26,093 nt of DNA from a virus. Its lineage: Duplodnaviria > Heunggongvirae > Uroviricota > Caudoviricetes. Where the stretch lies: IMG/VR virus record IMGVR_UViG_2547132272_000023. The stretch is one strand, 5' to 3'. Made by a program: the position numbers and the translations under genes. Positions 1 through 23,237 of the stretch are shown here, in pieces (position 1 is the stretch's first letter; every line of letters starts with the position of its first letter). The notes under the pieces were generated by a model. That model was given only the letters and a program-made list of their open reading frames with translations, had not been told where the DNA came from and did no database searches.

Positions 1-1410
1 ATGTCTTTTCTTGATATAAAAAAAATGAGTAAAGAGAGGTTTAATGCTTTTGTTGATTGGACCAGAATGCCAAATACTGAACTTTTAGGTTATGAGTTTG
101 AGTGGTACTGTAGTCCGAGAGAGTTCCTGCTAGGGGCACTATTATTGGATCAAATCGATGAAGATTATAGCGGTATTGTTTTAGCAAGAGACTTAAGTGG
201 GAGATATAGATGTATTGACCTATTTACTAGTGTTTCAGAAATGAATTCTGCACGAGCAAAACTAAAGAAATTAATGCGGAAGCATACTAAATTAAACGTA
301 AAAGTATTTCCACAAGGTGATGAAACTTATAAAGCAATGGATTTATTCACACCTATAGTTACACTAGATAAACTTCATCATCATTTTTCATTATTTGGTA
401 AATACGCGAACTGGTCGCCTGCAACAGGGATAATCAAGGAAATGATGAATCATTTTGAGGATGTCGACGGGAATTTTATAGAGCAGTTTCAGACAACAGG
501 TTTTGATGCCCGGCTATGGGAGTTATATCTTTTCGCATATTTACGAGAGGAACACTTTTGGCTAGATAGGCAGTTTAATGCCCCTGATTATGTGGCACGT
601 AAGTATGGTAATACTATTTGCATTGAAGCTGTAACGGTTAATCCAACAGGGAATGATATTAATCAATCATCTGAAATGCTATCTGAACCTAAAAGTAAGG
701 AAGAATTGCTAGAGAAAATAGAGAATTATATGCCGATTAAATTTGGAAGTTCTCTCTATTCTAAACTGAAAAAGAAAACTCGATACTGGGATCTAGAACA
801 TGTTAAGGGGAATCCTTTAATTTTCGCAATTGCTGATTTTCATGAACCAAACTCTATGATTTGGTCCCATAGTGCACTTTGGCAGTATCTTTATGGTATT
901 CGCTATGAGCATGTTAAATCTGAAGATGGATGTTACAGTTTAGCAACTAAGAAAATTATATCGCATCAATTTGAGAAAAAGGAAATTCCTTCAGGCTTTT
1001 TCTTCTTGGATGAGTCTGAAAATATTTCGGCCGTCCTTAGTTCTAATAGTGGTACTATATCGAAGTTTAATCGGATGGGAAAACTGGCTGGTTTTGGAAG
1101 AAGTGACCTTAGATTATTTAGGAGTGGTTACTGCCATGATCATGACCCAGAGGCATTATATCCAGCAGCATTTAGTTTTGAAGTGAAAGAAGGCGATATT
1201 ACAGAAACATGGGCAGAAGGTTTAAATATGTATCATAATCCTAATGCTAAATATCCTGTAGATCCTGATTTATTTCCTTCAATAGCACATCATTTTCTTG
1301 AAAATGGAGAGGTTAAAAGTATAGTGCCTGACTTTCATCCGTATACATCTATTACCATAAATGTCTTAACTCAAAATAATAAAAAACAAAAAATCAGAGT
1401 AGATGAGTAA
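1..1410 (+). CDS. Hypothetical protein, AT-rich cargo gene at the P2 old/tin hotspot position; candidate accessory/defence function
   Basis: Uninterrupted 469-codon ORF, visibly AT-rich against the GC-rich phage backbone, convergent with portal gene Q. No Walker A, HNH, zinc-finger or transmembrane signature recognised by eye. ATG lies exactly at window position 1, so the true start may be upstream. Confidence 0.55.
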   Translation: MSFLDIKKMSKERFNAFVDWTRMPNTELLGYEFEWYCSPREFLLGALLLDQIDEDYSGIVLARDLSGRYRCIDLFTSVSEMNSARAKLKKLMRKHTKLNVKVFPQGDETYKAMDLFTPIVTLDKLHHHFSLFGKYANWSPATGIIKEMMNHFEDVDGNFIEQFQTTGFDARLWELYLFAYLREEHFWLDRQFNAPDYVARKYGNTICIEAVTVNPTGNDINQSSEMLSEPKSKEELLEKIENYMPIKFGSSLYSKLKKKTRYWDLEHVKGNPLIFAIADFHEPNSMIWSHSALWQYLYGIRYEHVKSEDGCYSLATKKIISHQFEKKEIPSGFFFLDESENISAVLSSNSGTISKFNRMGKLAGFGRSDLRLFRSGYCHDHDPEALYPAAFSFEVKEGDITETWAEGLNMYHNPNAKYPVDPDLFPSIAHHFLENGEVKSIVPDFHPYTSITINVLTQNNKKQKIRVDE

Positions 1411-1430
1411 TTAATTAGGTTTATTCTTGT

Positions 1431-1453
1431 TAACCACCTCATAGAGGTGGTTA
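1431..1453. terminator. Perfect 10-bp inverted repeat (TAACCACCTC-ATA-GAGGTGGTTA) between convergent genes; putative bidirectional terminator
   Basis: Read directly from sequence; lies in the 47-bp gap between the orphan ORF stop (1410) and the Q stop (1458), AT-rich flanks. Confidence 0.4.
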
Positions 1454-1457
1454 TTAA

Positions 1458-2495
1458 TTAGTCTAGGGATAGTTGATATTCTTTGAATGTAATAATATTA
1501 TTTTTTAGCCATAAATTTAATTCTTCGAAACGTTTTTGCAAAGGTATTAATTCATTACGAACAAATACCCGACTTGCCTTCTCCACATCCCCAAACCCCC
1601 CAACATTATTCGGCAAAATTCCCATCATCTGAGGCGGTACGCGGTGTGCAGCCATCATGTCGTCTCGGCTCACGTTCTTGATGTTCAGAAATTCATCTTT
1701 CGCTGCGACTTCTGACAACGGGATGATCTGAAGCCCGTCCTTTTTGCCGTTAGGCGAGTACATAAACAGGTTGCGGAAGTTGCCAGGGCCTTTGGCGCTT
1801 TTCATCGCGTTGCGGAGGTTGTTCACATCTTCCTGGTTCTGCGCGGCGTCGGTCATATACATGATGAAGCCTGCATGACTGCCGTTAATGTAATACTTGC
1901 GGCGGAACAGCGTGGCAGACTCGTTGAGCAGGGCGGATGGAATAGCAGAAAGATAACCGGGCAGGCCGTAGATCTCCTGGTTGATGTCCGGTTCCATCAG
2001 ATGAAAGATGCTGCCTTTCGTGAACTGATATGGCTGCGTGGTCATACCGTATTGCACAAACCAGTAGGTATCCAGGTCTAACCCGCGTCGGGTGTATTTT
2101 GCCAAGGCAGGTTCAAGGGCGATAACTTCACCGAAGCGGTTCGTGCGTTTCTCCAGGTAGGCGTTACCAAATACCAGATAGTCCTGCACAAAACGCGAAA
2201 AAGCCTGCTGGCTGAGCAGCGGGTGAGGGATGTAGGTGCTGGTCAGAATGTTGCACTTTACTGCAATCGGGGAACTATGATGAACGGCAGCGCGGAAGGT
2301 GCGCGCCAGTCCGTCAAAGCTGACGGGCGGCTCATACCAGCGGTCCATCTGTACGCATTCCACATAATCCAGCAGTTCTCGGCGGTCCAGAACAGGAACG
2401 GGATCGCCGAAGCTGAATGCTTCGGCTGTAGTTTGACTTTTAAGCTGGATCTGTTTCGTCGCCGCAGCGCGGTTCTTCTTACTCTTTCCCATCAA
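1458..2495 (-). CDS. Q: Phage portal protein (P2 gpQ-like)
   Basis: 345 aa (P2 Q about 344 aa as recalled); ATGA start/stop overlap with the downstream terminase gene; position adjacent to P as in P2. Confidence 0.85.
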   Translation of the reverse strand: MMGKSKKNRAAATKQIQLKSQTTAEAFSFGDPVPVLDRRELLDYVECVQMDRWYEPPVSFDGLARTFRAAVHHSSPIAVKCNILTSTYIPHPLLSQQAFSRFVQDYLVFGNAYLEKRTNRFGEVIALEPALAKYTRRGLDLDTYWFVQYGMTTQPYQFTKGSIFHLMEPDINQEIYGLPGYLSAIPSALLNESATLFRRKYYINGSHAGFIMYMTDAAQNQEDVNNLRNAMKSAKGPGNFRNLFMYSPNGKKDGLQIIPLSEVAAKDEFLNIKNVSRDDMMAAHRVPPQMMGILPNNVGGFGDVEKASRVFVRNELIPLQKRFEELNLWLKNNIITFKEYQLSLD

Positions 2496-4258
2496 AAAAT
2501 CTCCACAATATTGCTGGTATTGGCGGATTCGCCCTGCAGCGGTTCGTTAAACAGTGCGTGCATCGTTGCCCAGGCCAGATCGGCGTGGCTGGCTTCTTCG
2601 CTGCGGCTGGCTTCATAGGTCGGGCGGTTGCCACTGGCGGTGGTGGCTCGACGGATTGCCATAAAGGACTGCGCTATGTCGGTGTGTCCGGCGTCAAACT
2701 CCAGACGGCGGTGGCTGATAATGTCGTAGGCCTTGAGTACCAGGGCGTTTTTAACGTTGGGGTTGTAGACAAACTCCCGGACGGCAGGAAAAAACGCTTT
2801 CACGTTCTCGTAAACCCCGTGACCAACGCCGGTTGAGTCGATACCGATATAGGTCACGTTGTACTGTTCGGTCAGTTTTTTGATGGCGTCAGCCTGGGCG
2901 CGGAAGTCCATTCCGCGCCACTGGTGACGCTCAAGAATGCGGAACTTACCGCCCGGCACGGCTGGCGGCGCCACCACCACGCATCCGGCGCTGTCGCCGT
3001 TCTGCGTACCTTTCGCCGGGTCATATCCGATCCACACTTCGCGCCAGCCAAACGGGCGCAGGGCCAGTGCATGAAAGTCGGTCCAGACTTCCCAACTGTC
3101 CACCATGCACGCCTGCAGCTCGCTGAGTGGGAACACAGACGCGAGATCGTCCACGAACTCACACATCAGCAGGTTCTGGTATTCGTCCGGGCTGTACTCC
3201 ATGCGCAACTGGTCGAGGTCGAACAGGTTACAGCCGCCGCGCACCGCATCTTCCACAGTGACTATCTGGCGGTACTGCCCGTCTGCGCACAGCAGGCCGG
3301 GGGCCAGATTGCTGTGGGACAGGTCGATGTCCACCTTATCGGCTTTGTTGCGCCCTCGGTTGAACAGCGCACCGGACCAGAACGGATAAGCACTGTGTGT
3401 CAGGCTGGATGGCGTGGAAAAATAGGTTTGTCGCCATTTTTTGTGAATAGCCATACCGGAAGCCACTTTGCGCAGCTCCTGGAATTTCGGTATCCAGAAA
3501 TATTCATCCAGATACAGGTTGCCGTGGTAACTCTGGGCCGTGCGGGCATTGGTGCCGAGGAAGTACAGCGTGGCCCCGTTAGGAAGCACCATCGGATCGC
3601 CTTTCAGCTCCACCTCCACTTCTTTGGCGAAGTCGATGATGTACTGCTTAAAGACGTGGGCCTGAGCCTTGCTGGCGGAAAGGAAAATCTGGTTACGCCC
3701 GGTTAGCAGGGCGTCAATCAGGGCTTCACGGGCAAAATAGAAGGTCGCGCCGATCTGGCGTGACTTCAGCAGGTTGCGGATGCGGTTGGTTTTTCCGGCT
3801 TCCCACCAGTGGCGCTGGTAGTTGAACATGGAGGAATGGAAGATTTCTTCCAGCTTCTCAATCTGTTCATCGGTGAAAACGTTCTTTTCCGGCTGACGGC
3901 GCGGGCCTTTGTTGCGGTTGGCGACGTTAGGGTTTAAGTCGGCTTCGTTGCCGCCATTGTTAAACTTGCCGATCCGCGCATGGCGCTCCGACTGGCGCGC
4001 CAGCAGGTCAATCTCTTTGAAATCTTTCCCTTCTTTGTGCTCCTTCATAATGAGCTGGCAGTAGCGTGCGGCGGTGGTGAGCTGCATCTGATCCAGCGGC
4101 CCATAGTCACCCCACTTGTCGCGTTTTTTCCAGCTGTGAACGGTTGCAACTTTCTCGCCCAGCATTTCAGCAATGCGGGCTACGCGGTATCCCTGAAAGT
4201 ACAGCAGCATGGCCTGCCGACGGGGATCGAGATCTGCGGGTGTCAGTGTGGTGTTCAT
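2492..4258 (-). CDS. P: Terminase large (ATPase) subunit (P2 gpP-like)
   Basis: 588 aa (P2 P about 590 aa); divergent from the O-N-M capsid operon across a 142-bp intergenic region, the same arrangement as P2. Confidence 0.9.
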   Translation of the reverse strand: MNTTLTPADLDPRRQAMLLYFQGYRVARIAEMLGEKVATVHSWKKRDKWGDYGPLDQMQLTTAARYCQLIMKEHKEGKDFKEIDLLARQSERHARIGKFNNGGNEADLNPNVANRNKGPRRQPEKNVFTDEQIEKLEEIFHSSMFNYQRHWWEAGKTNRIRNLLKSRQIGATFYFAREALIDALLTGRNQIFLSASKAQAHVFKQYIIDFAKEVEVELKGDPMVLPNGATLYFLGTNARTAQSYHGNLYLDEYFWIPKFQELRKVASGMAIHKKWRQTYFSTPSSLTHSAYPFWSGALFNRGRNKADKVDIDLSHSNLAPGLLCADGQYRQIVTVEDAVRGGCNLFDLDQLRMEYSPDEYQNLLMCEFVDDLASVFPLSELQACMVDSWEVWTDFHALALRPFGWREVWIGYDPAKGTQNGDSAGCVVVAPPAVPGGKFRILERHQWRGMDFRAQADAIKKLTEQYNVTYIGIDSTGVGHGVYENVKAFFPAVREFVYNPNVKNALVLKAYDIISHRRLEFDAGHTDIAQSFMAIRRATTASGNRPTYEASRSEEASHADLAWATMHALFNEPLQGESANTSNIVEIF

Positions 4259-4304
4259 GGCACAAACCTACAGCCTTGAATGAAGGCTTTCCCCGCCTGC
4301 GGTT

Positions 4305-4322
4305 TGTGTGGTTGTCGGTACA
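4305..4322. promoter_or_regulatory. TGT-N12-ACA dyad in the P/O divergent intergenic region; putative Ogr-dependent late promoter element (PO and/or PP)
   Basis: Sequence TGTgtggttgtcggtACA about 80 bp upstream of the O start codon; matches the P2 late-promoter activator-binding dyad as recalled. Confidence 0.4.
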
Positions 4323-4400
4323 AATACCGCGCATTGTTTCACTGCCCCCATCACCGCAACCATAAGGCTCCAGTAAGTTTTTTCTAACGGAGCACGGCTC

Positions 4401-5234
4401 ATGACAGTGAAAGCAAAGCGTTTTCGCATCGGGGTGGAAGGTGCCACCACCGACGGACGCGAAATCCAGCGTGAATGGCTGGAACAGATGGCAGCCAGCT
4501 ACAACCCGGCGGTGTATACCGCGCTGATTAACCTTGAGCACATCAAGTCTTATCTGCCGGACAGCACCTTTAACCGCTACGGCAAGGTGACGGCGCTGTT
4601 TGCTGAAGAAATCACGGAAGGTCCGCTGGCAGGCAAGATGGCGCTGTATGCCGACGTTGAGCCAACGGAGTCCCTGGTGGAACTGGTGAAAAAAGGCCAG
4701 AAATTATTCACCTCTATGGAAGTCAGCCCGAAGTTCGCTGATACGGGCAAAGCCTATCTGGTCGGCCTGGCGGCCACTGATGACCCTGCCAGTCTGGGTA
4801 CGGAAATGCTGACATTCAGCGCCAGTGCAGCCCATAACCCGCTGGCAAACCGCAAGCAGAATCCTGCCAATCTCTTTACCGCTGCAGAGGAAACGGTGAT
4901 CGAACTGGAAGAAATCCAGGACGACAAACCGTCCCTGTTTGCCCGCGTCACGGCGCTGTTTACCAAAAAAGAGCAGTCCGATGACGCCCGGTTCTCTGAT
5001 GTGCATAAGGCCGTGGAGCTGGTCGCCACTGAGCAGCAGAACCTGAGCGCACGCACCGAAAAATCCCTGTCTGAGCAGGAAGAACGCCTGTCTGAGCTGG
5101 AGACTGCCCTGCAGGCACAGCAAACCGCCTTTAACGAACTGGTGGACAAGCTGAGTCATGAAGACAGTCGCCAGGACTACCGCCAGCGTGCAACAGGCGG
5201 TAACGCCCCCGCTGACACTCTGACCAATTGCTGA
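4401..5234 (+). CDS. O: Capsid scaffolding protein (P2 gpO-like)
   Basis: 277 aa (P2 O about 284 aa), first gene of the O-N-M-L operon; acidic, coiled-coil-like C-terminal half. Confidence 0.85.
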   Translation: MTVKAKRFRIGVEGATTDGREIQREWLEQMAASYNPAVYTALINLEHIKSYLPDSTFNRYGKVTALFAEEITEGPLAGKMALYADVEPTESLVELVKKGQKLFTSMEVSPKFADTGKAYLVGLAATDDPASLGTEMLTFSASAAHNPLANRKQNPANLFTAAEETVIELEEIQDDKPSLFARVTALFTKKEQSDDARFSDVHKAVELVATEQQNLSARTEKSLSEQEERLSELETALQAQQTAFNELVDKLSHEDSRQDYRQRATGGNAPADTLTNC

Positions 5235-5250
5235 TGGAGCACAAAACCCG

Positions 5251-6309
5251 ATGAAGAAGAATACCCGCTTTGCTTTTAACGCTTACCTGCAGCAGCTGGC
5301 GCGTCTGAACGGTGTGGCAGTTGAAGAACTGTCCAGCAAGTTCACCGTGGAGCCGTCTGTGCAGCAGACGCTGGAAGACCAGATCCAGCAGTCCGCCGCT
5401 TTCCTGACGCTGATTAACGTCACGCCAGTGACTGAGCAGTCCGGTCAGCTGCTGGGGCTGGGAGTTGGCAGCACCATTGCCGGAACCACTGACACCACCG
5501 CGAAAGAGCGTGAACCTGTCGATCCGACGCTGATGGTCGATGTGGAATATAAATGCGAGCAGACCAACTTTGACACGGTGCTGACCTACGCGAAGCTGGA
5601 CCTGTGGGCGAAGTTTCAGGATTTCCAGGTGCGCATCCGTGACGCCATCGTGAAACGTCAGGCTCTGGACCGCATCATGATCGGCTTTAACGGCGTGAAG
5701 CGTGCGAAAACCTCCAACCGTAGCGAAAACCCGCTGCTGCAGGATGTGAACAAAGGCTGGCTGCAGAAAATCCGTGAAGATGCACCGGATCACGTCATGG
5801 GCAGCACCACCACGGGCGGTGAAACCACACCGGGTGCGGTGAAAGTCGGGAAAGGTGGCGAATATGCCAACCTGGACGCCGTGGTGATGGATGCCGTCAA
5901 TGAGCTTATCGATGTGGTCTACCAGGACGATGACGATCTGGTGGTGATTTGCGGTCGTGAACTGCTGTCTGACAAGTATTTCCCGCTGGTCAACAAAGAG
6001 CAGGAAAACAGTGAAAAACTGGCTGCCGATATGATCATCAGTCAGAAACGCATGGGTGGCCTGCAGGCCGTGCGTGCGCCGTTCTTCCCGCCGAATGCAC
6101 TGCTGATCACCCGTCTGGATAACCTGTCCATCTACTGGCAGGAAGACACCCGCCGCCGCTCAGTTATCGACAACCCGAAACGTGACCGGATTGAAAACTT
6201 TGAATCCGTTAACGAAGCCTATGTGGTTGAGGACTACCGCTGCGCCGCACTGGTGGAAAACATCCAGATTGGCGACTTCAGCGCCGCAGCAGCAGAAACC
6301 GGAGCGTAA
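5251..6309 (+). CDS. N: Major capsid protein (P2 gpN-like)
   Basis: 352 aa, immediately downstream of the scaffold gene; position and length as P2 N. Confidence 0.85.
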   Translation: MKKNTRFAFNAYLQQLARLNGVAVEELSSKFTVEPSVQQTLEDQIQQSAAFLTLINVTPVTEQSGQLLGLGVGSTIAGTTDTTAKEREPVDPTLMVDVEYKCEQTNFDTVLTYAKLDLWAKFQDFQVRIRDAIVKRQALDRIMIGFNGVKRAKTSNRSENPLLQDVNKGWLQKIREDAPDHVMGSTTTGGETTPGAVKVGKGGEYANLDAVVMDAVNELIDVVYQDDDDLVVICGRELLSDKYFPLVNKEQENSEKLAADMIISQKRMGGLQAVRAPFFPPNALLITRLDNLSIYWQEDTRRRSVIDNPKRDRIENFESVNEAYVVEDYRCAALVENIQIGDFSAAAAETGA

Positions 6310-6312
6310 TTC

Positions 6313-6963
6313 ATGAGCCTGAGTCCCGCACGGCAGCATCGCCTGCGCGTTCAGGCTGAACAGGCCGCCCGCGAGGGCGGCAGCGTTCGCCACGCGTCGG
6401 GCTATGACCTGATGCTGCTGCAACTGGCGGAAGACCGCCGCCGTCTCAAGGGCGTTCAGTCCACGGTCAAAAAAGCGGAAATCAAGGTGGAGCTGCTGCC
6501 GAAGTACGCCGCCTGGGCGGAGGGTGTCCTGGCTGCCGGAGGCGCTCAACAGGATGACGTGCTGATGTACGTGATGCTGTGGCGCATTGATGCCGGAGAT
6601 TATGCCGGGGCGCTGGAGATCGGGCGTCACGCCCTGCGTCATGGCTGGGTGATGCCGTTAGGTAACCGCAACGTGCAGACCGTGCTGGCAGAGGAAATGG
6701 CAGATGCAGCCCAGAGCGCAATGCTTGCCGCCACCGGCTTTGATGCCGATCTGTTGCTGCAGACCCTGGAGCTGACAGACGGTATGGATATGCCGGACCA
6801 GTCACGGGCGCGTCTGCATAAAGCGATTGGCGCTGTCCTGAGTGAAAGAAATCCGGCGTCTGCCCTTAATCATCTCAACCATGCGTTACAGCTCGATCCC
6901 CGCTGTGGCGTGAAAAAAGACAAACAGCAGCTGGAGCGCAGACTGCGCAATGACAGCCGCTGA
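6313..6963 (+). CDS. M: Terminase small/endonuclease subunit (P2 gpM-like)
   Basis: 216 aa ORF starting 4 bp after the N stop; position as P2 M. Confidence 0.8.
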   Translation: MSLSPARQHRLRVQAEQAAREGGSVRHASGYDLMLLQLAEDRRRLKGVQSTVKKAEIKVELLPKYAAWAEGVLAAGGAQQDDVLMYVMLWRIDAGDYAGALEIGRHALRHGWVMPLGNRNVQTVLAEEMADAAQSAMLAATGFDADLLLQTLELTDGMDMPDQSRARLHKAIGAVLSERNPASALNHLNHALQLDPRCGVKKDKQQLERRLRNDSR

Positions 6964-7058
6964 CAGAACGTGCCCCCGCGCACGGGCGGCACGGGGTGGC
7001 GAAAGGCACTGCCACATCAAAACCCCGTCCACCGCCCTCTATTTCAGGAGAAAGCAGC

Positions 7059-7523
7059 ATGAAGTTTGTTGCGCCAGAACAGGCACCGGAACAGGCGGAA
7101 ATCATCAGGAATACGCCGTTCTGGCCTGATGTGGACCTGTCGGAGTTTCGCAGTGTGATGCGCACTGACGGCACGGTGACGCAGCCGCGTTTAAAACAGG
7201 TTGCCCTGTCGGCAATTTCGGAGGTCAACGCAGAGCTGTATGAGTTTCGCAGACGCCAGCAGATGCTGGGGTATGCCTCGCTGGCAGAAGTCCCGGCGGA
7301 ACAACTGGACGGCAAAAGCGAGCGCATTCAGCACTATTTCAACGCGGTTTACTGCTGGGCACGCGCCATGCTCAACGAACGTTACCAGGACTATGACGCC
7401 ACGGCATCCGGTGCGAAGCGAGGCGAGGAACTGGCGGAAGCAAGCGGTGATTTATGGCGTGACGCCCGCTGGGCCATCCGCCGGGTGCAGGATGCGCCGC
7501 ACTGCACAGTGGAGCTTATCTGA
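7059..7523 (+). CDS. L: Head completion/stabilisation protein (P2 gpL-like)
   Basis: Start chosen at ATG 7059, preceded by AGGAG at 7046-7050; the longer ORF from 6996 has no ribosome-binding site. Position as P2 L. Confidence 0.75.
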   Translation: MKFVAPEQAPEQAEIIRNTPFWPDVDLSEFRSVMRTDGTVTQPRLKQVALSAISEVNAELYEFRRRQQMLGYASLAEVPAEQLDGKSERIQHYFNAVYCWARAMLNERYQDYDATASGAKRGEELAEASGDLWRDARWAIRRVQDAPHCTVELI

Positions 7524-7726
7524 TGAAAGTGCGTGCGCATCAGTATGACACGGTGGACGCGCTTTGCTGGCGTCATTACGGGCGCACGCAGGGTGTCACG
7601 GAGCAGGTACTGAAGGCAAATCCGGGGCTTGCCGAATATGGCCCCTTTTTACCTCACGGGCTGCAGGTGGAGCTGCCGGACATTCCGACCACCACCACCG
7701 TGCAGACCGTCCAGCTATGGGACTGA
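7523..7726 (+). CDS. X: Tail protein X (P2 gpX-like)
   Basis: 67 aa, same length as P2 X; start overlaps the L stop. Confidence 0.7.
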   Translation: MKVRAHQYDTVDALCWRHYGRTQGVTEQVLKANPGLAEYGPFLPHGLQVELPDIPTTTTVQTVQLWD

Positions 7727-7729
7727 ATT

Positions 7730-7945
7730 ATGACGCTTGAGCGAATCAGCGCCTTTATCACGTATTGCATCGCCGTCGTGCTGGCCTGGCTGGGCGATTT
7801 GTCCATCAAGGATGCCTCAACGCTGGGCGGCCTGATGATTGGTGTGCTGATGCTGGCTATCAACTGGTACTACAAACACAAAGCCTACCAGCTTCTGCGC
7901 GACGGGCAGATCTCGCGGGAGGACTATGAATCCATCAATCGTTAA
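7730..7945 (+). CDS. Y: Holin (P2 gpY position)
   Basis: 71-aa protein with hydrophobic helices and a charged C-terminus, directly upstream of the endolysin gene. Confidence 0.7.
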   Translation: MTLERISAFITYCIAVVLAWLGDLSIKDASTLGGLMIGVLMLAINWYYKHKAYQLLRDGQISREDYESINR

Positions 7946-8438
7946 ACGCTGCCTTGTCGGGGCCGTGCTGGCTATTGCTGCCACGCTGCCGGGTTTTCAG
8001 CAGCTTCACACCTCCGTGGAGGGGCTGAAACTGATTGCCGATTACGAAGGTTGTCGTCTGCAGCCGTATCAGTGCAGCGCGGGTGTCTGGACCGACGGCA
8101 TTGGTAATACGTCAGGCGTCATTCCCGGCAAAACCATTACGGAGCGACAGGCAGCAGAAGGGCTGATCTCCAACGTGCTGCGTGTCGAGCGGGCGCTGGA
8201 AAGGTGTGTGAAGCAACTGCCGCCGCAGAAGGTGTATGACGCTGCGGTGTCGTTTGCCTTCAACGTGGGAACAGGCAATGCCTGCAGTTCCACGCTGGTG
8301 AATTTACTCAATCAGCGGCGCTGGGCAGATGCGTGCCGACAGTTGCCGCGCTGGGTTTATGTGAAAGGTGTTTTTAATCAGGGGCTGGATAACCGCCGTG
8401 CGCGGGAGATGGCCTGGTGTTTACAGGGAGCAAACTGA
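7926..8438 (+). CDS. K: Endolysin/lysozyme (P2 gpK-like), with hydrophobic N-terminal segment
   Basis: 170 aa; N-terminus MNPSIVKRCLVGAVLAIAATLPG is hydrophobic (possible signal-anchor-release type), followed by a lysozyme-like region; overlaps the Y stop. Confidence 0.8.
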   Translation: MNPSIVKRCLVGAVLAIAATLPGFQQLHTSVEGLKLIADYEGCRLQPYQCSAGVWTDGIGNTSGVIPGKTITERQAAEGLISNVLRVERALERCVKQLPPQKVYDAAVSFAFNVGTGNACSSTLVNLLNQRRWADACRQLPRWVYVKGVFNQGLDNRRAREMAWCLQGAN

Positions 8439-8439
8439 A

Positions 8440-8817
8440 ATGAAAAAGAAATTAATCAGCGGACTGTTTCTGATGTTATGGATGGCGCTGTTAATCGCAG
8501 CAATGGTGTATCCGCAGGGGATTTTTCCGGTACTGGCAGCGTCCGGCGTTTGGGTAGCCTGTTTGCTGACATGGGCGGTAATTCCGGTAGCACTGGCTGC
8601 GTTAATTAAGAATGGCCCGCTCTGGCAGGAGTTAAGGGCATCTTTGCTGAAGACAATTACCCGAAAAGAAAACGTATTTACCAGTTGGGTGATGCGATTG
8701 CTGATTGTTGTAAGTCTCGCCTGGACGGGGTGGGCTATTACCCTGGTCTTTTATCTACTGACCGTTATTGCCTTCTGGATCACCCGTAATCAGATGGCGC
8801 AACAGGTAGCAGCATGA
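8440..8817 (+). CDS. lysA: Lysis timing membrane protein (P2 LysA-like)
   Basis: Start at ATG 8440 preceded by GGGAG (8426-8430), one nt after the K stop; multi-pass hydrophobic protein. Confidence 0.6.
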   Translation: MKKKLISGLFLMLWMALLIAAMVYPQGIFPVLAASGVWVACLLTWAVIPVALAALIKNGPLWQELRASLLKTITRKENVFTSWVMRLLIVVSLAWTGWAITLVFYLLTVIAFWITRNQMAQQVAA

Positions 8818-9242
8818 ACCGGTTGCTGCTGGTTGTGCTGACGTTATTACTGGCGGCGCTGGGCTGGCAGACGTGGCGGCTGGCTGATGCCAGCCAGACC
8901 ATCAGCACGCAGGCAGACGAGCTGCAGAGCAAAAGCCAGGCACTGGCAAAGAGCAATAGCCAGCTTATCAGCCTGTCCATTCTGACTGAAACCAATAACC
9001 GGGAGCAGGCGCGGCTCTATGCCGAAGCAGAACAGACCAGCACGCTGCTGAGACAACGACAACACCGGATCGAGGAACTGAAACGTGAGAACGAGGATTT
9101 ACGCCGCTGGGCTGATACTCCTTTGCCTGCTGACATTATCCGGCTGCGGAAACGTCCGGCACTCACCGGAGGTATGGCTTACCGTCAGTGGTTGTCCGCG
9201 AGTGACGCCGTGTCGGCTGGATCAGGCAACGCCGCGCACTAA
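8814..9242 (+). CDS. lysB: Inner-membrane spanin, Rz-like (P2 LysB-like)
   Basis: 142 aa; N-terminal transmembrane helix then a Q/E/R-rich coiled-coil region; ATGA overlap with lysA. Confidence 0.7.
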   Translation: MNRLLLVVLTLLLAALGWQTWRLADASQTISTQADELQSKSQALAKSNSQLISLSILTETNNREQARLYAEAEQTSTLLRQRQHRIEELKRENEDLRRWADTPLPADIIRLRKRPALTGGMAYRQWLSASDAVSAGSGNAAH

Positions 9243-9375
9243 CGGTGATCTGAACGCATTGCTGGATGAAACGGAGGCCGCCTGGGCGGTCTGTGCAGAC
9301 AAAGTGGACATGATTATTGCATGTCAGGAGCGAAACAGTGAACAAACCACAATCCCTGCGCCACGCCCTCAATAA
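9085..9375 (+). CDS. lysC: Outer-membrane lipoprotein spanin, Rz1-like (P2 LysC-like), out of frame within the lysB 3' end
   Basis: Signal peptide with lipobox LTLSGC near the N-terminus; nested in a different frame across the lysB 3' end and running into R, the usual embedded spanin architecture. Confidence 0.6.
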   Translation: MRTRIYAAGLILLCLLTLSGCGNVRHSPEVWLTVSGCPRVTPCRLDQATPRTNGDLNALLDETEAAWAVCADKVDMIIACQERNSEQTTIPAPRPQ

Positions 9376-9769
9376 AGCAGTGCCTTATGTCCGTAATAAC
9401 CCGGACAAACTGCATCTGTTTGTGGATAACGGTTCGCTGGTTGCCACGGGGGCCAACTCCATGTCATGGGAGTACCGCTACACCCTGAACGTGGTGATTG
9501 AGGATTTCAGCGGCGACCAGAATCTGCTGATGGCCCCGGTTTTGCTGTGGCTGCGGGATAACCAGCCCGATGCCATCAATAACCCGGCGTTACGGGAAAA
9601 GCTATTCACCTTTGATGTGGATATTTTGCGCAACGATGTCTGTGATATCAGCCTTAACCTGCAACTGACGGAACGTGTGCTGGTCAGCACTGACGGCAGT
9701 GTGTCGAGCGTTGAAGCTGTAGCAGAACCCGATGAACCTGAAGAAATGTGGACGGTGAAACGTGGCTGA
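9338..9769 (+). CDS. R: Tail completion protein (P2 gpR-like)
   Basis: GTG start at 9338 with AGGAG 8 nt upstream; the track ORF from 9317 begins with TTG and has no ribosome-binding site. Confidence 0.7.
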   Translation: MNKPQSLRHALNKAVPYVRNNPDKLHLFVDNGSLVATGANSMSWEYRYTLNVVIEDFSGDQNLLMAPVLLWLRDNQPDAINNPALREKLFTFDVDILRNDVCDISLNLQLTERVLVSTDGSVSSVEAVAEPDEPEEMWTVKRG

Positions 9770-10208
9770 ACTGCAGAAGGTGGACGACTGGCTGAGTGCC
9801 TTGCTGGCGAATCTGGAACCAGCCACGAGAAGCCGCATGATGCGCCAGCTGGCGCAGGAACTGCGCCGGACACAGCAGCAGAATATCAGGATGCAGCGCA
9901 ATCCAGATGGCAGCAGTTATGAACCGCGCAGGGTAACAGCACGCAGCAAGAAGGGGCGCATCAAACGTCAGATGTTTGCAAAGCTGCGCACCACAAAATA
10001 CCTGAAAACTGCCGCCAGCGCCGACTCTGCCAGCGTGCAGTTTGAAGGTAAGGTGCAGCGCATTGCCCGTGTTCACCATTACGGCCTGCGAGATCGCGTC
10101 AGTCGTAAGGGACCGGAGGTGCGTTACGCAGAGCGTCGCCTTCTGGGTGTAAATGATGATGTTGAGGCAATGACCCGCGACATGATTCTGCAATGGCTGG
10201 CGGGGTGA
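9762..10208 (+). CDS. S: Tail completion protein (P2 gpS-like)
   Basis: 148 aa (P2 S about 150 aa); overlaps the R stop. Confidence 0.7.
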   Translation: MAELQKVDDWLSALLANLEPATRSRMMRQLAQELRRTQQQNIRMQRNPDGSSYEPRRVTARSKKGRIKRQMFAKLRTTKYLKTAASADSASVQFEGKVQRIARVHHYGLRDRVSRKGPEVRYAERRLLGVNDDVEAMTRDMILQWLAG

Positions 10209-10212
10209 TCTT

Positions 10213-10230
10213 TGTATCAGCACTGATACA
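10213..10230. promoter_or_regulatory. TGT-N12-ACA dyad upstream of V; putative Ogr-dependent late promoter PV
   Basis: TGTatcagcactgatACA in the 68-bp S-V intergenic region, about 47 bp upstream of the V start codon. Confidence 0.45.
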
Positions 10231-10276
10231 AGTTGCAGCACTGCCGCCTTTCTTCCCCTGATGGCAACCTTTCCCT

Positions 10277-10855
10277 ATGAACGCACAATTAACCGAAATC
10301 ATGCGCCTTATCACCAACCTGATCCGCACAGGGGTAGTCACCGAAGTGGACAGGGAAAACTGGCTTTGCCGGGTGAAAACGGGCGAGCTTGAAACCAACT
10401 GGATCAGCTGGCTGACGCTGCGTGCCGGGAATGCCCGTACATGGTGGCGACCATCGGAAGGTGAGCAGGTGGTGCTGCTGAGTCTGGGCGGCAATCTGGA
10501 AACCGCCTTTGCGCTGCCCGCTGTCTATTCGAATCAGTTCGCACCACCGTCGACGTCGGCGGACGCCTGCGTGACAGAACATCCTGACGGTGGCTGGTTT
10601 GAATACGAACCCGCCACCGGGCGCTGGTATGTCAGGGGCATCAAATCAATGGTCATTGAGGCTGCTGACAACATCACCATGAAAACCAGTGAGTTTGTAC
10701 TGGAGGCTGACCGCACGCGCATTAACAGCGAAGTGGTGATCAATGGTGGCGTTACCCAGGGCGGCGGAGCGATGAGTTCTAACGGGATCGTGGTTGATGC
10801 GCATCAGCATACTGGCGTCCTGAAAGGCGGCGATACAACCGGAGGCCCGGTATGA
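10277..10855 (+). CDS. V: Baseplate assembly/spike protein (P2 gpV-like)
   Basis: 192 aa, first gene after the putative PV promoter; position as P2 V. Confidence 0.75.
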   Translation: MNAQLTEIMRLITNLIRTGVVTEVDRENWLCRVKTGELETNWISWLTLRAGNARTWWRPSEGEQVVLLSLGGNLETAFALPAVYSNQFAPPSTSADACVTEHPDGGWFEYEPATGRWYVRGIKSMVIEAADNITMKTSEFVLEADRTRINSEVVINGGVTQGGGAMSSNGIVVDAHQHTGVLKGGDTTGGPV

Positions 10856-11211
10856 CGCTTTATAGCGGGATGAACAATACCAGCGGCAAAGTCATTACTG
10901 ATATTGATCATCTGCGCCAGTCGGTGCGGGACATTCTGCTGACACCGCAGGGTAGCCGTATTGCCCGCCGGGAATATGGTTCCCTGCTGTCGGCACTGAT
11001 AGATCAGCCACAAAATCCGGCATTACGCCTGCAGGTCATGTCGGCAGTGTATGTGGCGCTGAGTCGCTGGGAGCCACGGTTGACGCTGGATTCCATCACC
11101 ATCAACAGCAATTTTGACGGTTCAATGGTGGTGGAGCTGACCGGGCGGCGGAATAACGGTGTGCCTGTGTCCCTTTCCGTATCAACAGGAGCAGAGAATG
11201 GCAGTGATTGA
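10852..11211 (+). CDS. W: Baseplate wedge protein (P2 gpW-like)
   Basis: 119 aa (P2 W about 115 aa); ATGA overlap with V. Confidence 0.75.
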   Translation: MTLYSGMNNTSGKVITDIDHLRQSVRDILLTPQGSRIARREYGSLLSALIDQPQNPALRLQVMSAVYVALSRWEPRLTLDSITINSNFDGSMVVELTGRRNNGVPVSLSVSTGAENGSD

Positions 11212-12106
11212 CCTTTCGCAGTTGCCTGCACCGCAGATTGTGGATGTGCCGGACTTTGAGACGCTGCTTGCCGAACGCAAGGCAGAATTTGTGGCGCTTC
11301 ATCCGAAAGATGAGCAGGAAGCAGTGATCCGCACGCTGGAACTGGAATCTGAACCCGCCACTAAATTGTTGCAGGAGAACGCTTACCGTGAGTTGCTTCT
11401 GCGCCAGCGCATTAACGAAGCCGCGCAGGCGGTGATGGTGGCTTACGCGATGGGTGGCGATCTTGACCAGCTCGCTGCCAACTACAACGTGACACGCCTG
11501 ACGGTGACGCCTGCTGATAATGATGCTGTGCCGCCCGTTGCAGCTGTGATGGAAAGCGATGAAGCGTTGCGCCTGCGTGTGCCTGCAGCCTTTGAAGGGC
11601 TTTCTGTTGCGGGGCCAACTGCAGCTTATGAATTTCATGCCCGAAGCGCCGACGGTCGGGTGGCGGATGCCAGTGCAACCAGCCCGGCACCTGCAGAGGT
11701 GGTACTGACTGTCCTTAGCCGCGAAGGCGATGGAACTGCAGAAAAAGACCTGCTGGACGTGGTGGAAAAAGCTCTGAACAGTGAGAACGTCCGCCCGGTG
11801 GCTGACCGTCTTACGGTTCGCAGCGCAGAAATCATCCCGTATCGCGTGGAAGCCACCATTTTTCTCTATCCGGGACCGGAAGCAGAGCCGGTAATGGCAG
11901 CGGCAAAAGCCAGTCTGCAGAAGTACATTGCCAGCCAGACGAGGCTTGGTCGGGATATTCGCCGTAGCGCCATCTTTGCTGCTCTGCATGTTGAGGGTGT
12001 TCAACGTGTGGAACTGGCTTCTCCGCTGGCGGATGTGGTCCTGAACAAAACACAGGCGGCATCATGTACGCAGTGGAGCGTAACCAACGGAGGAACGGAT
12101 GAATAG
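11198..12106 (+). CDS. J: Baseplate assembly protein (P2 gpJ-like)
   Basis: ATG 11198 preceded by AGGAG (11184-11188) gives 302 aa, the P2 J length as recalled; the longer track ORF from 11159 lacks a ribosome-binding site. Confidence 0.8.
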   Translation: MAVIDLSQLPAPQIVDVPDFETLLAERKAEFVALHPKDEQEAVIRTLELESEPATKLLQENAYRELLLRQRINEAAQAVMVAYAMGGDLDQLAANYNVTRLTVTPADNDAVPPVAAVMESDEALRLRVPAAFEGLSVAGPTAAYEFHARSADGRVADASATSPAPAEVVLTVLSREGDGTAEKDLLDVVEKALNSENVRPVADRLTVRSAEIIPYRVEATIFLYPGPEAEPVMAAAKASLQKYIASQTRLGRDIRRSAIFAALHVEGVQRVELASPLADVVLNKTQAASCTQWSVTNGGTDE

Positions 12107-14724: not shown

Positions 14725-14809
14725 CTGAGAATTAAATGGTTAGTATCATCCTCCCCCACACTGCCTATATGGTATGAATACGAGGGGGAGGCTGTTTGTT
14801 GTCTGTTTC

Positions 14810-14818
14810 TGTGATAAT
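14810..14818 (+). promoter_or_regulatory. Putative extended -10 element (TGtGATAAT) for the acyltransferase cargo gene
   Basis: TG motif one base upstream of a GATAAT hexamer, about 35 bp upstream of ATG 14852; no good -35 hexamer. Confidence 0.3.
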
Positions 14819-14851
14819 ATTAGATTCCCGTTTTTTAATAAAAAAATCAAT

Positions 14852-15862
14852 ATGAAAGAGAATAAAATACGTTCTGCCGATGGCGTGAGAGGTTTCGCTT
14901 TGATGATTGTTGTGGTGATGCATTCTACGGGACTATTCTTTCCCTCACTTCATGATCATCTCGGAGGTACGGGGCAGCCCGGTGTTTGGTTGTTTTTTGT
15001 TCTTAGCGCCTTTTTGTTGACACATAAATTTATTAATTCTGGTTTTTCGTTTTTGAATGTGTTGAGTTATCTTTTAGGGCGAACAATAAGGATATTACCG
15101 ATTTTTTATATTGCAGTATTAATTTATTACCTTATGGGATTTTATGATTTAGAGAAAATGAAATCGATAATTTCATTTGATAGTACTTACATCCATCTCT
15201 GGACTATTCCGATAGAATTCAAGTTTTACTTTTTGTTGCCGATTGTGGTTTATCTCGCATCTAGTATCCAGAAAGTTGCAGGTAGAAAATATTCTTTGTT
15301 GTTTTTGATATTGTTAACCTTAGCGTTCGCTTTTATATACCCTTATACGGATGACGAAATCAACGGTAGGCTACCGTATTACATTCCTGTTTTTATGTAT
15401 GGAATTATAATTGCGTTTATGTATAACTATTTTCAAATTAAAATATCATCTCTCGTTAGTGATGGGGTGTCAATTGCGATTATATTAATATTTATAATGT
15501 TGACCCCTCCTTTTCAGGGGGCTAATGGTTGGCTGGGTAATAAATTTGTGGTATTGGGGCCATTTATTGCTCTCTTTGTATATCTGCAAGTAAATTCCAG
15601 TGGGTATGTAAGCGCGGTTTTATCTTCAAAAATCATGGCGGATTTGGGGAAATATAGTTTTTCAATTTATTTGTTTCATATAATGATAATTTTTATTGTT
15701 TATCCTAAATTTTTGGATAATGTTACTGCATACTTAGTTACTATAGCTTTATGTATTGGCGGTGGGGCTATTGCCTATCATTGCATTGAATCTCCCTTGG
15801 AATCGTTCAGACATAAGCTTATGAAAAGAATAACGCAGGCTTATCAGAATCAAAATATTTAA
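14852..15862 (+). CDS. Acyltransferase-3 family integral membrane protein; putative O-antigen/surface-polysaccharide acetyltransferase (lysogenic conversion cargo at the Z/fun position)
   Basis: N-terminus KIRSADGVRGFALMIVVVMH fits the conserved R...G.RG.A......H start of acyltransferase-3 proteins; about ten hydrophobic helices; strongly AT-rich; located between G and FI. Start placed at ATG 14852 rather than the track start 14774. Confidence 0.7.
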   Translation: MKENKIRSADGVRGFALMIVVVMHSTGLFFPSLHDHLGGTGQPGVWLFFVLSAFLLTHKFINSGFSFLNVLSYLLGRTIRILPIFYIAVLIYYLMGFYDLEKMKSIISFDSTYIHLWTIPIEFKFYFLLPIVVYLASSIQKVAGRKYSLLFLILLTLAFAFIYPYTDDEINGRLPYYIPVFMYGIIIAFMYNYFQIKISSLVSDGVSIAIILIFIMLTPPFQGANGWLGNKFVVLGPFIALFVYLQVNSSGYVSAVLSSKIMADLGKYSFSIYLFHIMIIFIVYPKFLDNVTAYLVTIALCIGGGAIAYHCIESPLESFRHKLMKRITQAYQNQNI

Positions 15863-23018: not shown

Positions 23019-23237
23019 ATGATGATTTGCCCACTGTGTGGAAGTGCCGCCCATACTCGCAGCAGTTTTCAGGTATCTTCATTGACCAAAGAGCGTTACA
23101 ACCAGTGCCAGAACATTAACTGCAGCCATACTTTTGTTACCCATGAAACTTTTGTTCGTTCGATTGCAACGCCAAAAGAGTCAAATCCGGTTCAGCCGCA
23201 TCCAATGAAATCAGGACAGGTGGCGCTCTCTCTTTGA
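23019..23237 (+). CDS. ogr: Zinc-finger late transcription activator (P2 Ogr-like)
   Basis: ATG 23019 with GGGGAGA upstream gives 72 aa, the P2 Ogr length; Cys4 motif CPLCG-X22-CQNINC near the N-terminus. Confidence 0.8.
   Translation: MMICPLCGSAAHTRSSFQVSSLTKERYNQCQNINCSHTFVTHETFVRSIATPKESNPVQPHPMKSGQVALSL

What the first reader, a model, noticed from the sequence alone, without database searches (positions are those of the whole stretch)
1411..1560. No cos-like sequence between the cargo gene and portal Q; Q 3' end is itself AT-rich
In P2, cos lies between old and the 3' end of Q, with roughly 150-200 bp between the cohesive end and the Q stop (recalled, not verified). Here only 47 bp separate the orphan ORF stop from the Q stop, and they are AT-rich with a perfect 10-bp hairpin and no GC-rich 19-nt cohesive-end-like motif. 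In addition, the last ~100 nt of Q (about 1458-1560) are AT-rich, unlike the rest of the gene, which suggests the cargo recombination junction lies inside the Q 3' end. The prophage may have lost or relocated cos and so be packaging-defective, or this lineage simply has a different cos context.
Basis: inference. Interest (0 to 1): 0.5.

Follow-up and report, generated by a model that had tools for sequence, protein, structure and literature searches.

The report
Defence cassette between cos and portal
The missing packaging site is not lost: in this well-known family of P2-like prophages it sits on the far side of a swappable anti-phage gene, just beyond the edge of the window, so the arrangement is ordinary.

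Summary
The spacer 1411-1457 is 47 bp with a perfect 10-bp hairpin. No cos-like motif occurs anywhere in the window. The last ~100-140 nt of portal gene Q are 24% GC against 53% for the rest.

The "lost cos, packaging-defective" reading is not supported. The "orphan ORF" (1-1410) is a PD-T7-1 anti-phage gene in the known cos-proximal gpA-gpQ defence hotspot of P2-like phages. In all 25 complete E. coli genomes carrying this cassette, the 19-nt cos core ends 99 bp upstream of window base 1. Its 55-bp core aligns without gaps to P2, P4 and 186. Fels-2, RE-2010 and Cartapus share the order cos-cargo-Q and an AT-poor-to-AT-rich Q tail.

Among 78 relatives with near-identical Q bodies there are 51 different Q tails. 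Each tail goes with one cos-to-Q distance, and tail GC tracks cargo GC.

One caveat remains. The source contig ends in an IS5-family element 78 bp upstream of the cargo ATG, so cos in this particular genome cannot be seen.

Verdict: already known architecture, low interest.

The parts
1..1410 (+). Cargo gene of the cassette: a 469-aa PD-T7-1-family anti-phage defence protein, convergent with Q.
   Evidence: The PADLOC model PD-T7-1 matches at E 3.5e-196 over residues 7-457, model positions 2-449 of 452. There is no Pfam or NCBIfam hit. GC is 0.28-0.43. RefSeq annotates it as a hypothetical protein, WP_000008839.1. Vassallo 2022 labels PD-T7-1 'Nuclease' in its supplement.
1411..1457 (.). 47-bp AT-rich spacer between the convergent cargo and Q stop codons.
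   Evidence: Read directly from the sequence. It belongs to the cassette, not to the conserved phage backbone. Relatives carrying other cargo align only from window 1477-1533 onward.
1431..1453 (.). Perfect 10-bp hairpin 4 nt beyond the Q stop. It is the positional equivalent of the terminators tQ in P2 and tW in 186, and is probably a terminator between the convergent genes.
   Evidence: Fold z-scores are -3.0 and -3.7. P2 tQ lies at 160-181 with the Q stop at 187; 186 tW lies at 164-187 with the W stop at 196. A strong hairpin just past the Q stop is present in about 80% of 55 different cassettes, each with its own sequence. The consensus terminator scan did not call this one.
1458..1600 (-). 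Cassette-linked, AT-rich, hypervariable 3' end of portal gene Q. It covers the last ~29 codons at protein level and ~47 codons at synonymous-site level.
   Evidence: Mean pairwise difference jumps from 0.01-0.14 in the Q body to 0.22-0.48 from about window 1583 to the stop. Synonymous difference pS is 0.83 in the tail and 0.74 in the junction, against 0.29 in the body. GC3 is 0.34 in tails overall and 0.17 in this tail, against 0.66 in the body. There are 51 tails among 78 loci, each with one cos distance. Key residues stay conserved: Q, N, W, F and the hydrophobic positions.
1458..2492 (-). Portal gene Q (gpQ homologue), intact.
   Evidence: Pfam Phage_portal matches at E 4e-18. RefSeq annotates a 344-aa phage portal protein. 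It is 93-100% identical to 80 IMG/VR relatives.
2492..4258 (-). Terminase ATPase subunit gene P (gpP homologue), intact. It is the enzyme that would act on cos.
   Evidence: A 588-aa ORF, annotated as terminase ATPase subunit, with Terminase_5, Terminase_6N and Terminase_6C domains. The small or endonuclease subunit M at 6313-6963 is also intact.

Best explanation
The region is the right-hand (Q-side) boundary of a swappable defence cassette in the cos-proximal gpA-gpQ hotspot of a P2-like (Fels-2/Cartapus-type, Peduoviridae) prophage.

Order of elements: the conserved 55-bp cos core; a 98-bp leader measured from the 19-nt cohesive-end homologue to the ATG; the PD-T7-1 gene (window 1-1410); a hairpin (1431-1453); then the Q stop and a cassette-specific, AT-rich version of the last ~30-45 codons of Q.

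cos is absent between cargo and Q because in this lineage the cargo sits to the right of cos, as in satellite P4. In P2 the cargo (old, tin) sits to the left. In intact copies the 19-nt cohesive-end homologue GGCGTGGCGGGGATACGAG ends 99 bp upstream of window base 1, outside the window.

Shown here: cos position and conservation in all visible copies, cassette boundaries, the one-to-one link between Q tail and cos-to-Q distance, and the composition tracking.

Inferred:
- Cassettes are exchanged by homologous recombination, with one crossover at or left of the cos core and the other inside Q. The Q tail and the terminator therefore travel with the cargo.
- The 55-bp core alone suffices for packaging. 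The argument is that P4, which shares only this core with P2, is packaged by P2 terminase.
- The hairpin terminates cargo and/or Q-P transcription.
For: cos position
- In UPEC132, which has 1 mismatch to window 1-2600, the core lies at L001 13884-13902 and the cargo ATG at 14001.
- All 25 complete E. coli genomes with the cassette carry the cos stretch and the cargo contiguously.
- Seven further IMG/VR contigs do too. So do the shorter metagenome contigs that reach far enough upstream, and Logan contigs that are 0-3 mismatches from the window over 11.4 kb.

cos homology
- The alignment with P2, P4, 186 and Cartapus is gap-free across TGCAT...GCGCGC, which is 55 bp.
- Cartapus annotates the same sequence at its left genome end as a putative cos.

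Sharp left boundary
- More than 1200 E. coli genomes and 88 phage records share the stretch only up to the base after CGCGCG.

Arrangement in other phages
- Cartapus: cos, a DUF4145 gene, then Q 8 bp later. Encapsidated DNA was detected.
- Fels-2 and RE-2010: cos, a 1.7-kb ORF, then Q.
- In 72 IMG/VR loci where cos is visible, the Q stop lies 168-3504 bp from the cos core.

Q tail
- 51 tails occur among 78 loci, each with one cos distance.
- Tail GC is 0.23-0.49 against 0.52-0.54 for the body, and correlates with cargo GC (r = 0.62, p = 2e-6).
- P2 and 186, which have no Q-side cargo, have tail GC 0.51 and 0.55. Locus L054, with cos 168 bp from the Q stop as in P2, has 0.49-0.50.

Cargo identity
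- PD-T7-1.

Literature
- The gpA-gpQ cos-proximal hotspot: PMC9122126 and PMC9519451.
- ORFs between cosL and the gpQ homologue as a suggested hotspot, citing Dodd & Egan 1996 and Nakayama 1999: PMC5694545.
Against: - The window's own source contig (IMGVR_UViG_3300026224_000020) ends in an IS5-family element 78 bp upstream of the cargo ATG. cos is therefore not on the contig.
- The expected cos-flank/IS5 left junction was not found in two metagenome scans and one viral-contig scan. An IS5-associated deletion of cos in this genome is not excluded.
- No experimental mapping of cohesive ends was found in what I read for this cos variant, which differs from P2 at 5 of 19 positions. The Cartapus cos is annotated as 'putative'.
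- The consensus terminator scan did not call the 1431-1453 hairpin, so its terminator role is positional inference.
- The recombination mechanism is inferred from polymorphism patterns, not observed.
Confidence: 0.88

Rival explanations
1. In this particular genome the prophage really has lost cos. The IS5-family element 78 bp upstream of the cargo gene marks a deletion or rearrangement that removed cos and the early region, leaving a packaging-defective late-gene remnant.
For: - The source contig and two other assemblies (ENA k141_6093 and JGI Ga0209547_100005) end inside the IS5 at the same junction.
- The complementary junction (cos right flank followed by an IS5 end) was not found in metagenome contigs or viral contigs.
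- No IMG/VR contig from sample 3300026224 carries the cos plus cassette left end.
Against: - Assemblies routinely break at multicopy IS elements, so a contig end proves nothing.
- The junction is at a TTAG, which from memory fits the IS5 target preference, as expected for a simple insertion.
- A contig identical to the window over 11.4 kb (Logan ERR273782_80) has the complete early region and cos.
- All late genes, both terminase subunits and ogr are intact in the window, which argues against old decay.
- The collections searched are not guaranteed to hold the short partner contig.
Confidence: 0.1
2. The AT-rich, hypervariable Q tail is not a passive recombination scar. It is under diversifying selection in its own right, for example to change the portal C-terminus so as to escape portal-sensing defences or satellite interference.
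For: - There are 51 protein variants of the last ~29 residues among portals that are otherwise 93-100% identical.
- Non-synonymous difference pN rises 100-fold, from 0.003 to 0.30.
Against: - pN/pS in the tail is 0.36, with synonymous sites saturated at pS 0.83. There is no excess of amino-acid change over silent change.
- Key residues and the hydrophobic pattern are conserved.
- Each tail goes with a single cos-to-Q distance, and tail GC, including GC3, follows the cargo. Linkage explains this; selection on the protein does not.
- Synonymous saturation starts ~30 nt upstream of where the protein begins to vary.
Confidence: 0.07
3. cos has been relocated elsewhere in the prophage, or the phage uses a different packaging signal or a headful mechanism.
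For: No cos-like motif occurs in the 26-kb window.
Against: - Exactly one cos core is found per related locus, always between DinI/gpA and the cargo.
- The terminase genes are P2-type, with small subunit M and large subunit P.
- The window simply does not extend far enough left.
Confidence: 0.02

Closest known systems
P2 defence hotspot #1, the cos-proximal gpA-gpQ locus of P2-like phages (Odegrip 2006; Rousset 2022, PMC9122126; Vassallo 2022, PMC9519451; NAR 2026, PMC13586616)
   Same: It lies between the replication gene A and portal gene Q, next to cos. Its content varies between otherwise near-identical prophages. It carries a known single-gene defence system, PD-T7-1.
   Different: Nothing essential differs. 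In the P2 reference the cargo (old, tin) lies left of cos and 167 bp of non-coding DNA separate cos from Q. Here the cargo lies right of cos and abuts Q. The parts of these papers I read do not discuss which side of cos the cargo sits on, or that the boundary runs into the Q coding sequence.
186-related retron prophages (Dodd & Egan 1996, as cited in PMC5694545), phiCTX and Ralstonia phiRSY1, with foreign genes between cosL and the gpQ homologue
   Same: Foreign DNA replaces the stretch between the cos site and the terminator or end of the portal gene. [quoted passage not shown]
   Different: By the title of the 1996 paper, the right boundary there is a transcription terminator. Here the replaced segment also includes the terminator and the last ~30-45 codons of Q.
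Fels-2, RE-2010 (ELPhiS) and Cartapus (Felsduovirus and Elveevirus)
   Same: They have the same cos core, the same order cos-cargo-Q, and AT-rich Q tails (GC 0.34, 0.32 and 0.40).
   Different: They carry different cargo genes: a 1.7-kb hypothetical ORF, an AIPR-family gene and a DUF4145 gene. Each has its own Q tail and spacer.
Satellite P4 cos-proximal hotspot (Rousset 2022)
   Same: Variable defence DNA starts directly to the right of the shared 55-bp cos core, at the same base (...GCGCGC).
   Different: P4 has no portal gene. Its hotspot is bounded by int, not Q.

Membership tests
P2-family cos site (55-bp core of Ziermann & Calendar 1990, as cited in PMC5694545 and PMC9122126) | A GC-rich 19-nt cohesive-end sequence homologous to GGCGAGGCGGGGAAAGCAC, present near Q | tested here: met
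   It is absent from the window. GGCGTGGCGGGGATACGAG, which matches P2 at 14 of 19 and 186 at 15 of 19 positions, ends 99 bp upstream of window base 1 in every copy of the cassette whose upstream DNA is visible.
P2-family cos site (55-bp core of Ziermann & Calendar 1990, as cited in PMC5694545 and PMC9122126) | Conserved flanks shared by P2 and P4 (TGCATTAAAACC...AAGCGGGC on the left, GCGCGC on the right) | tested here: met
   The alignment of P2, P4, 186, UPEC132, L018 and Cartapus is gap-free. Conservation ends right after CGCGCG.
P2-family cos site (55-bp core of Ziermann & Calendar 1990, as cited in PMC5694545 and PMC9122126) | Cleavage by terminase to give 19-nt 5' cohesive ends | not testable with these tools
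   This needs virion DNA end mapping. The Cartapus record only says 'putative cos'.
P2-family cos site (55-bp core of Ziermann & Calendar 1990, as cited in PMC5694545 and PMC9122126) | Present in the source genome of this window | tested here: inconclusive
   The source contig ends in IS5 78 bp upstream of the cargo ATG. The partner junction was not found.
P2 defence hotspot #1 (gpA-gpQ) | Located between the gpA and gpQ homologues, next to cos | tested here: met
   In relatives identical or nearly identical to the window the order is gpA, a small ORF, DinI, cos, cargo, Q, P.
P2 defence hotspot #1 (gpA-gpQ) | Different gene content in otherwise near-identical phages | tested here: met
   There are 51 or more different cassettes next to Q genes that are 93-100% identical. 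Examples include a retron, DprA plus a PRTase, a STAS-like gene and an AIPR gene.
PD-T7-1 defence system (Vassallo 2022) | Full-length match to the PD-T7-1 profile | tested here: met
   The PADLOC model PDLC04073 matches at E 3.5e-196 and 650 bits, covering model positions 2-449 of 452.
PD-T7-1 defence system (Vassallo 2022) | Protects against phage infection (T7 and the T-even phages) | not testable with these tools
   This was shown only for the ECOR46 allele in PMC9519451. This allele has not been tested.
Rho-independent terminator (equivalent of P2 tQ and 186 tW) | A GC-containing stem-loop directly after the stop codon, followed by a U-tract | tested here: inconclusive
   The stem is perfect (10 bp, 5 G-C pairs) and lies 4 nt after the Q stop, the same position as tQ and tW. 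The tail is TTATTAATTA on the + strand and has no T-run on the - strand. The consensus scan did not call it.

The most novel reading that the evidence does not exclude
Every defence cassette at the cos-Q hotspot of Fels-2/Cartapus-type phages carries two things of its own. One is a terminator hairpin. The other is a deeply diverged, AT-rich but still homologous copy of the last ~30-45 codons of the portal gene.

This would mean that cassettes are moved as units with fixed ends, the 55-bp cos core on one side and a crossover zone at about the VFVRNEL codons of Q on the other. It would also mean that the portal C-terminus is continually replaced, with possible effects on packaging, on P4 hijacking or on recognition by defences.

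The pattern itself is shown here. It was not mentioned in the parts of the hotspot papers I read, and PMC13586616 contains none of the terms C-terminal, breakpoint, GC content, AT-rich or terminator. What remains open is whether it has any functional consequence beyond linkage.
Probability: 0.15. Interest if true: 0.45.

Novelty: already known. Interest (0 to 1): 0.15.

Why it matters
For the scan, this removes a false alarm. The absence of cos between cargo and Q is the normal layout of a large, well-described group of P2-like prophages. The cos was missed only because it lies about 100 bp beyond the window edge.

It also names the 'orphan ORF' as a PD-T7-1 defence gene in the known P2 hotspot.

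One small addition may be useful for defining cassette ends in hotspot surveys and for thinking about how cassettes are swapped. The hotspot has base-precise boundaries: immediately after the 55-bp cos core on one side, and inside the last ~45 codons of the portal gene on the other. The portal tail and a terminator travel with each cassette.

Tried and rejected
- I searched the window for the P2 cos 19-mer and for the lineage's own core, allowing up to 3 mismatches. Nothing was found. This is consistent with cos lying outside the window, not with loss.
- The P2 19-mer with up to 3 mismatches also missed the true cos in UPEC132, because that cos differs at 5 of 19 positions. It was found by homology to the Cartapus left end instead.
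- I tried to find the cos-side junction of the IS5 insertion in metagenome and viral contigs, in three scans. There were 0 hits, so this stays unresolved.
- I looked for close PD-T7-1 relatives next to P2-like portals in other species, to trace the origin of the AT-rich tail. Only homologues of 35-55% identity turned up, across many phyla, so this was uninformative.
- I looked for a solved portal structure by sequence, to place the variable tail. There was none. I did not run a structure prediction, because only a single-sequence model was allowed without spending a large database search.
- The consensus promoter scan found no promoter-like site between cos and the cargo ATG, so the cargo promoter is not identified.
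- An exact-product look-up of the 362-aa acyltransferase ORF failed, because gene calls in the collection use other start codons.
- Odegrip 2006 is not held in the library.

Full report

Yes. The cargo ORF occupies 1-1410 (+) and portal gene Q runs on the minus strand with its stop at 1458-1460. That leaves a 47-bp spacer, 1411-1457. The spacer contains a perfect 10-bp hairpin: TAACCACCTC at 1431-1440, loop ATA, GAGGTGGTTA at 1444-1453. It folds better than 199 of 200 shuffles on the + strand and all 200 on the - strand, with z-scores of -3.0 and -3.7.

GC is 0.22-0.27 across 1351-1550 and never falls below 0.47 from 1551 to 5000. The last 103 nt of Q are 0.24 GC against 0.53 for the rest of the gene. 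Neither the P2 cohesive-end 19-mer nor this lineage's own version occurs anywhere in the 26-kb window, even with 3 mismatches.

**2. Where is cos?**

The first 2.6 kb of the window match 23 complete E. coli genomes at 97.8-100% over their full length. UPEC132 has a single mismatch to window 1-2600. There the prophage reads: int, a PD-Lambda-1-like gene, CI, the early genes, gpA, a small ORF, DinI, a 321-bp gap, the cargo, Q, P, and the late genes.

The gap contains CATGAAAACCACTACATAAAGCGGGCA-GGCGTGGCGGGGATACGAG-CGCGCG. This is identical to the sequence annotated as 'putative cos site, homologous to the cos of P2 phage' at the left end of the linear genome of phage Cartapus. It aligns without gaps to the cos regions of P2, P4 and 186. 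The conserved block runs from TGCAT to GCGCGC. That is 55 bp, the size of the core that Ziermann & Calendar defined as shared by P2 and P4, as cited in PMC5694545 and PMC9122126.

The 19-nt cohesive-end homologue matches P2 at 14 of 19 positions. This is why a search allowing 3 mismatches misses it. It ends 99 bp upstream of window base 1.

**3. Is this the rule for the cassette and the lineage?**

All 25 complete E. coli genomes that carry the cargo have the cos stretch and the cargo contiguous. Seven further IMG/VR contigs do too. So do the shorter metagenome contigs that reach far enough upstream, and two Logan contigs that are 0-3 mismatches from the window over 11.4 kb.

More than 1200 other E. 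coli genomes and 88 phage records share the cos stretch only up to the base after CGCGCG. This is a base-precise left boundary of the variable DNA. It falls at the same base where P4 diverges from P2.

I examined 80 IMG/VR loci whose portal is 93-100% identical to this one. Exactly one cos core lies downstream of the Q stop wherever the contig reaches far enough. The distance is 168-3504 bp. Only one locus, L054, has the P2-like arrangement, with cos 168 bp from Q.

**4. Do phages with this layout produce particles?**

- Cartapus has cos, a 699-bp DUF4145 gene, then Q only 8 bp later. It is prophage 4 of E. coli LF82. Its DNA was recovered in the virion fraction by virome sequencing and qPCR at 3.3e5 genomes per mL, although no plaques or particles were seen (PMC9928086).
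- Fels-2, the classical inducible P2-like phage of Salmonella LT2 by textbook knowledge, has the same cos core, a 1.7-kb ORF, then Q.
- RE-2010 has an AIPR-family gene in that place.
- PMC5694545 states that ORFs between cosL and the gpQ homologue occupy a position already proposed as a hotspot, citing Dodd & Egan 1996 and Nakayama 1999.
- Rousset 2022 and Vassallo 2022 describe the gpA-gpQ, cos-adjacent locus as the main defence hotspot of P2-like phages.

**5. What is the cargo?**

The 469-aa protein has no Pfam or NCBIfam hit. It matches the PADLOC profile of PD-T7-1 over its full length at E 3.5e-196. PD-T7-1 is a single-gene system recovered from ECOR46 in a functional selection. It is labelled 'Nuclease' there, and it protects more strongly against T-even phages than against T7 (PMC9519451). 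Homologues at 35-55% identity occur across many bacterial phyla.

**6. The AT-rich end of Q**

- Among 78 loci with near-identical Q bodies there are 51 different C-terminal tails. Each tail goes with a single cos-to-Q distance.
- Mean pairwise nucleotide difference is 0.01-0.14 along the Q body. It jumps to 0.22-0.48 from about window 1583 to the stop.
- Synonymous differences are 0.29 in the body, 0.74 in the 51 nt around the VFVRNEL codons, and 0.83 (saturated) in the tail. Non-synonymous differences are 0.003, 0.06 and 0.30.
- GC3 falls from 0.66 in the body to 0.34 in tails generally and 0.17 in this one.
- Tail GC correlates with the GC of the adjacent cargo (r = 0.62, p = 2e-6).
- P2 and 186, which have no cargo on the Q side, have tail GC 0.51 and 0.55. 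L054 has 0.49-0.50. Fels-2, RE-2010, Cartapus and 4LV2017 have 0.34, 0.32, 0.40 and 0.28.
- The tails remain homologous and constrained. Q, N, W, F and the hydrophobic positions are invariant or nearly so. pN/pS is below 1.

The simplest reading is linkage. The tail belongs to the cassette and travels with it, and recombination homogenises the rest of Q. This is an inference from polymorphism. It does not by itself explain why the tails are AT-rich at silent sites. Possible causes are a low-GC donor background or local mutational drift, and I could not tell them apart.

**7. The hairpin**

It lies 4 nt past the Q stop. P2 annotates terminator tQ at 160-181 with the Q stop at 187. Phage 186 annotates tW at 164-187 with the W stop at 196. 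In about 80% of 55 different cassettes a strong hairpin of unrelated sequence lies just past the Q stop, often flanked by A- and T-runs. Each cassette thus brings its own terminator-like element between the convergent genes. For this one, the T-rich tail is only on the cargo strand, and the consensus scan did not call it. Its terminator role is therefore likely but not shown.

**8. The source contig and a caveat**

One IMG/VR contig carries the junction TTCGCACCTTCC|TTAGCTTTTTTTT. It is IMGVR_UViG_3300026224_000020, 26,296 nt long. The cargo ATG is 203 nt from its end, and 26,296 - 203 = 26,093, which is the window length. The window is therefore this contig without its last 203 nt.

Those 203 nt are 78 nt of the cassette's normal leader followed by 125 nt of an IS5-family end. 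The transposase matches NF033581 at E 5e-73. The assembly stops there. An ENA contig with the same junction is identical to the window over positions 1-11410 and 2701-24128.

The IS abuts a TTAG that lies 20 nt after the 19-nt core and 13 nt after the 55-bp core, so a simple insertion would leave the core intact. I could not find the other junction. I therefore cannot show that cos is present in this genome.

I give about 10% to an IS5-associated loss of cos. Contig breaks at IS copies are routine. The late genes, both terminase subunits and ogr are intact. An otherwise identical contig has the full early region and cos.

**9. Verdict**

The architecture, with the 55-bp cos core, a defence cassette, a hairpin, and a cassette-specific Q tail, is the known cos-proximal hotspot of P2-like phages, here carrying a known defence gene. 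It is not evidence of a packaging defect.

One detail was not mentioned in the parts of the literature I read: the hotspot boundary runs into the portal coding sequence, and each cassette carries its own portal tail and terminator. That is a modest refinement, not a new kind of system.

Noticed in passing
203 nt beyond window base 1 on the source contig (L193 11528-11730, minus strand); also L019 1-665: The source contig IMGVR_UViG_3300026224_000020 continues for 78 nt of native leader and then 125 nt of an IS5-family element, inserted at a TTAG, where the assembly ends. From memory, IS5 insertions upstream of AT-rich silenced operons can activate them, so this copy might alter PD-T7-1 expression. 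Whether cos survives beyond it is unknown.
   Followed up: partly
window 14774-15862 (+): A 362-aa Acyl_transf_3 membrane acyltransferase (Pfam E 9e-27, no PADLOC hit) sits between tail-fibre assembly gene G and sheath gene FI. That is the position of the second P2 hotspot (Z/fun). It is a likely surface-modification moron. Gene calls in other assemblies use shorter starts (319 or 336 aa).
   Followed up: partly
L189 5624-7425 and L192 5624-7425 (relatives; equivalent to window ~10208-10277): Some relatives with the same tail-fibre protein carry an AAA_15/AAA_21 ATPase plus a 229-aa ORF inserted between tail genes S and V. This is a further cargo site inside the tail operon, and it is empty in this window.
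   Followed up: no
L001 5085-6761 (UPEC132, outside the window): The close relative carries a PD-Lambda-1 homologue between int and the CI repressor (DUF4041 protein, PADLOC E 2.7e-120). One prophage can therefore hold defence genes at several sites.
   Followed up: no
L018 5030-5707 and L017 9033-9710 (contigs 0-3 mismatches from the window): An extra 225-aa ORF with no Pfam or PADLOC hit lies between DinI and cos, on the left (P2 old/tin) side of cos. It is absent from UPEC132. cos thus sits inside the hotspot, with cargo possible on both sides.
   Followed up: partly
L024-L103, first ~80 nt after each Q stop: About 80% of 55 different cassettes have a strong perfect hairpin (8-17 bp) just past the Q stop. 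Each has a different sequence, and many have flanking A- and T-runs like bidirectional terminators.
   Followed up: yes
E. coli strains 33-6 and 58-3 (hits H24, H25): In two broiler isolates the match to the window is split into two pieces and an IS1 transposase is annotated under the match, at or in the PD-T7-1 gene. This would be a second independent IS event at this cassette.
   Followed up: no
window 23473-25158 (-) and beyond: The right end of the window is host DNA: ybjL, an aspartate:alanine antiporter. It follows ogr at about 23019-23237. In UPEC132 the prophage sits between rcdA and ybjL. No tRNA gene is in the window.
   Followed up: partly
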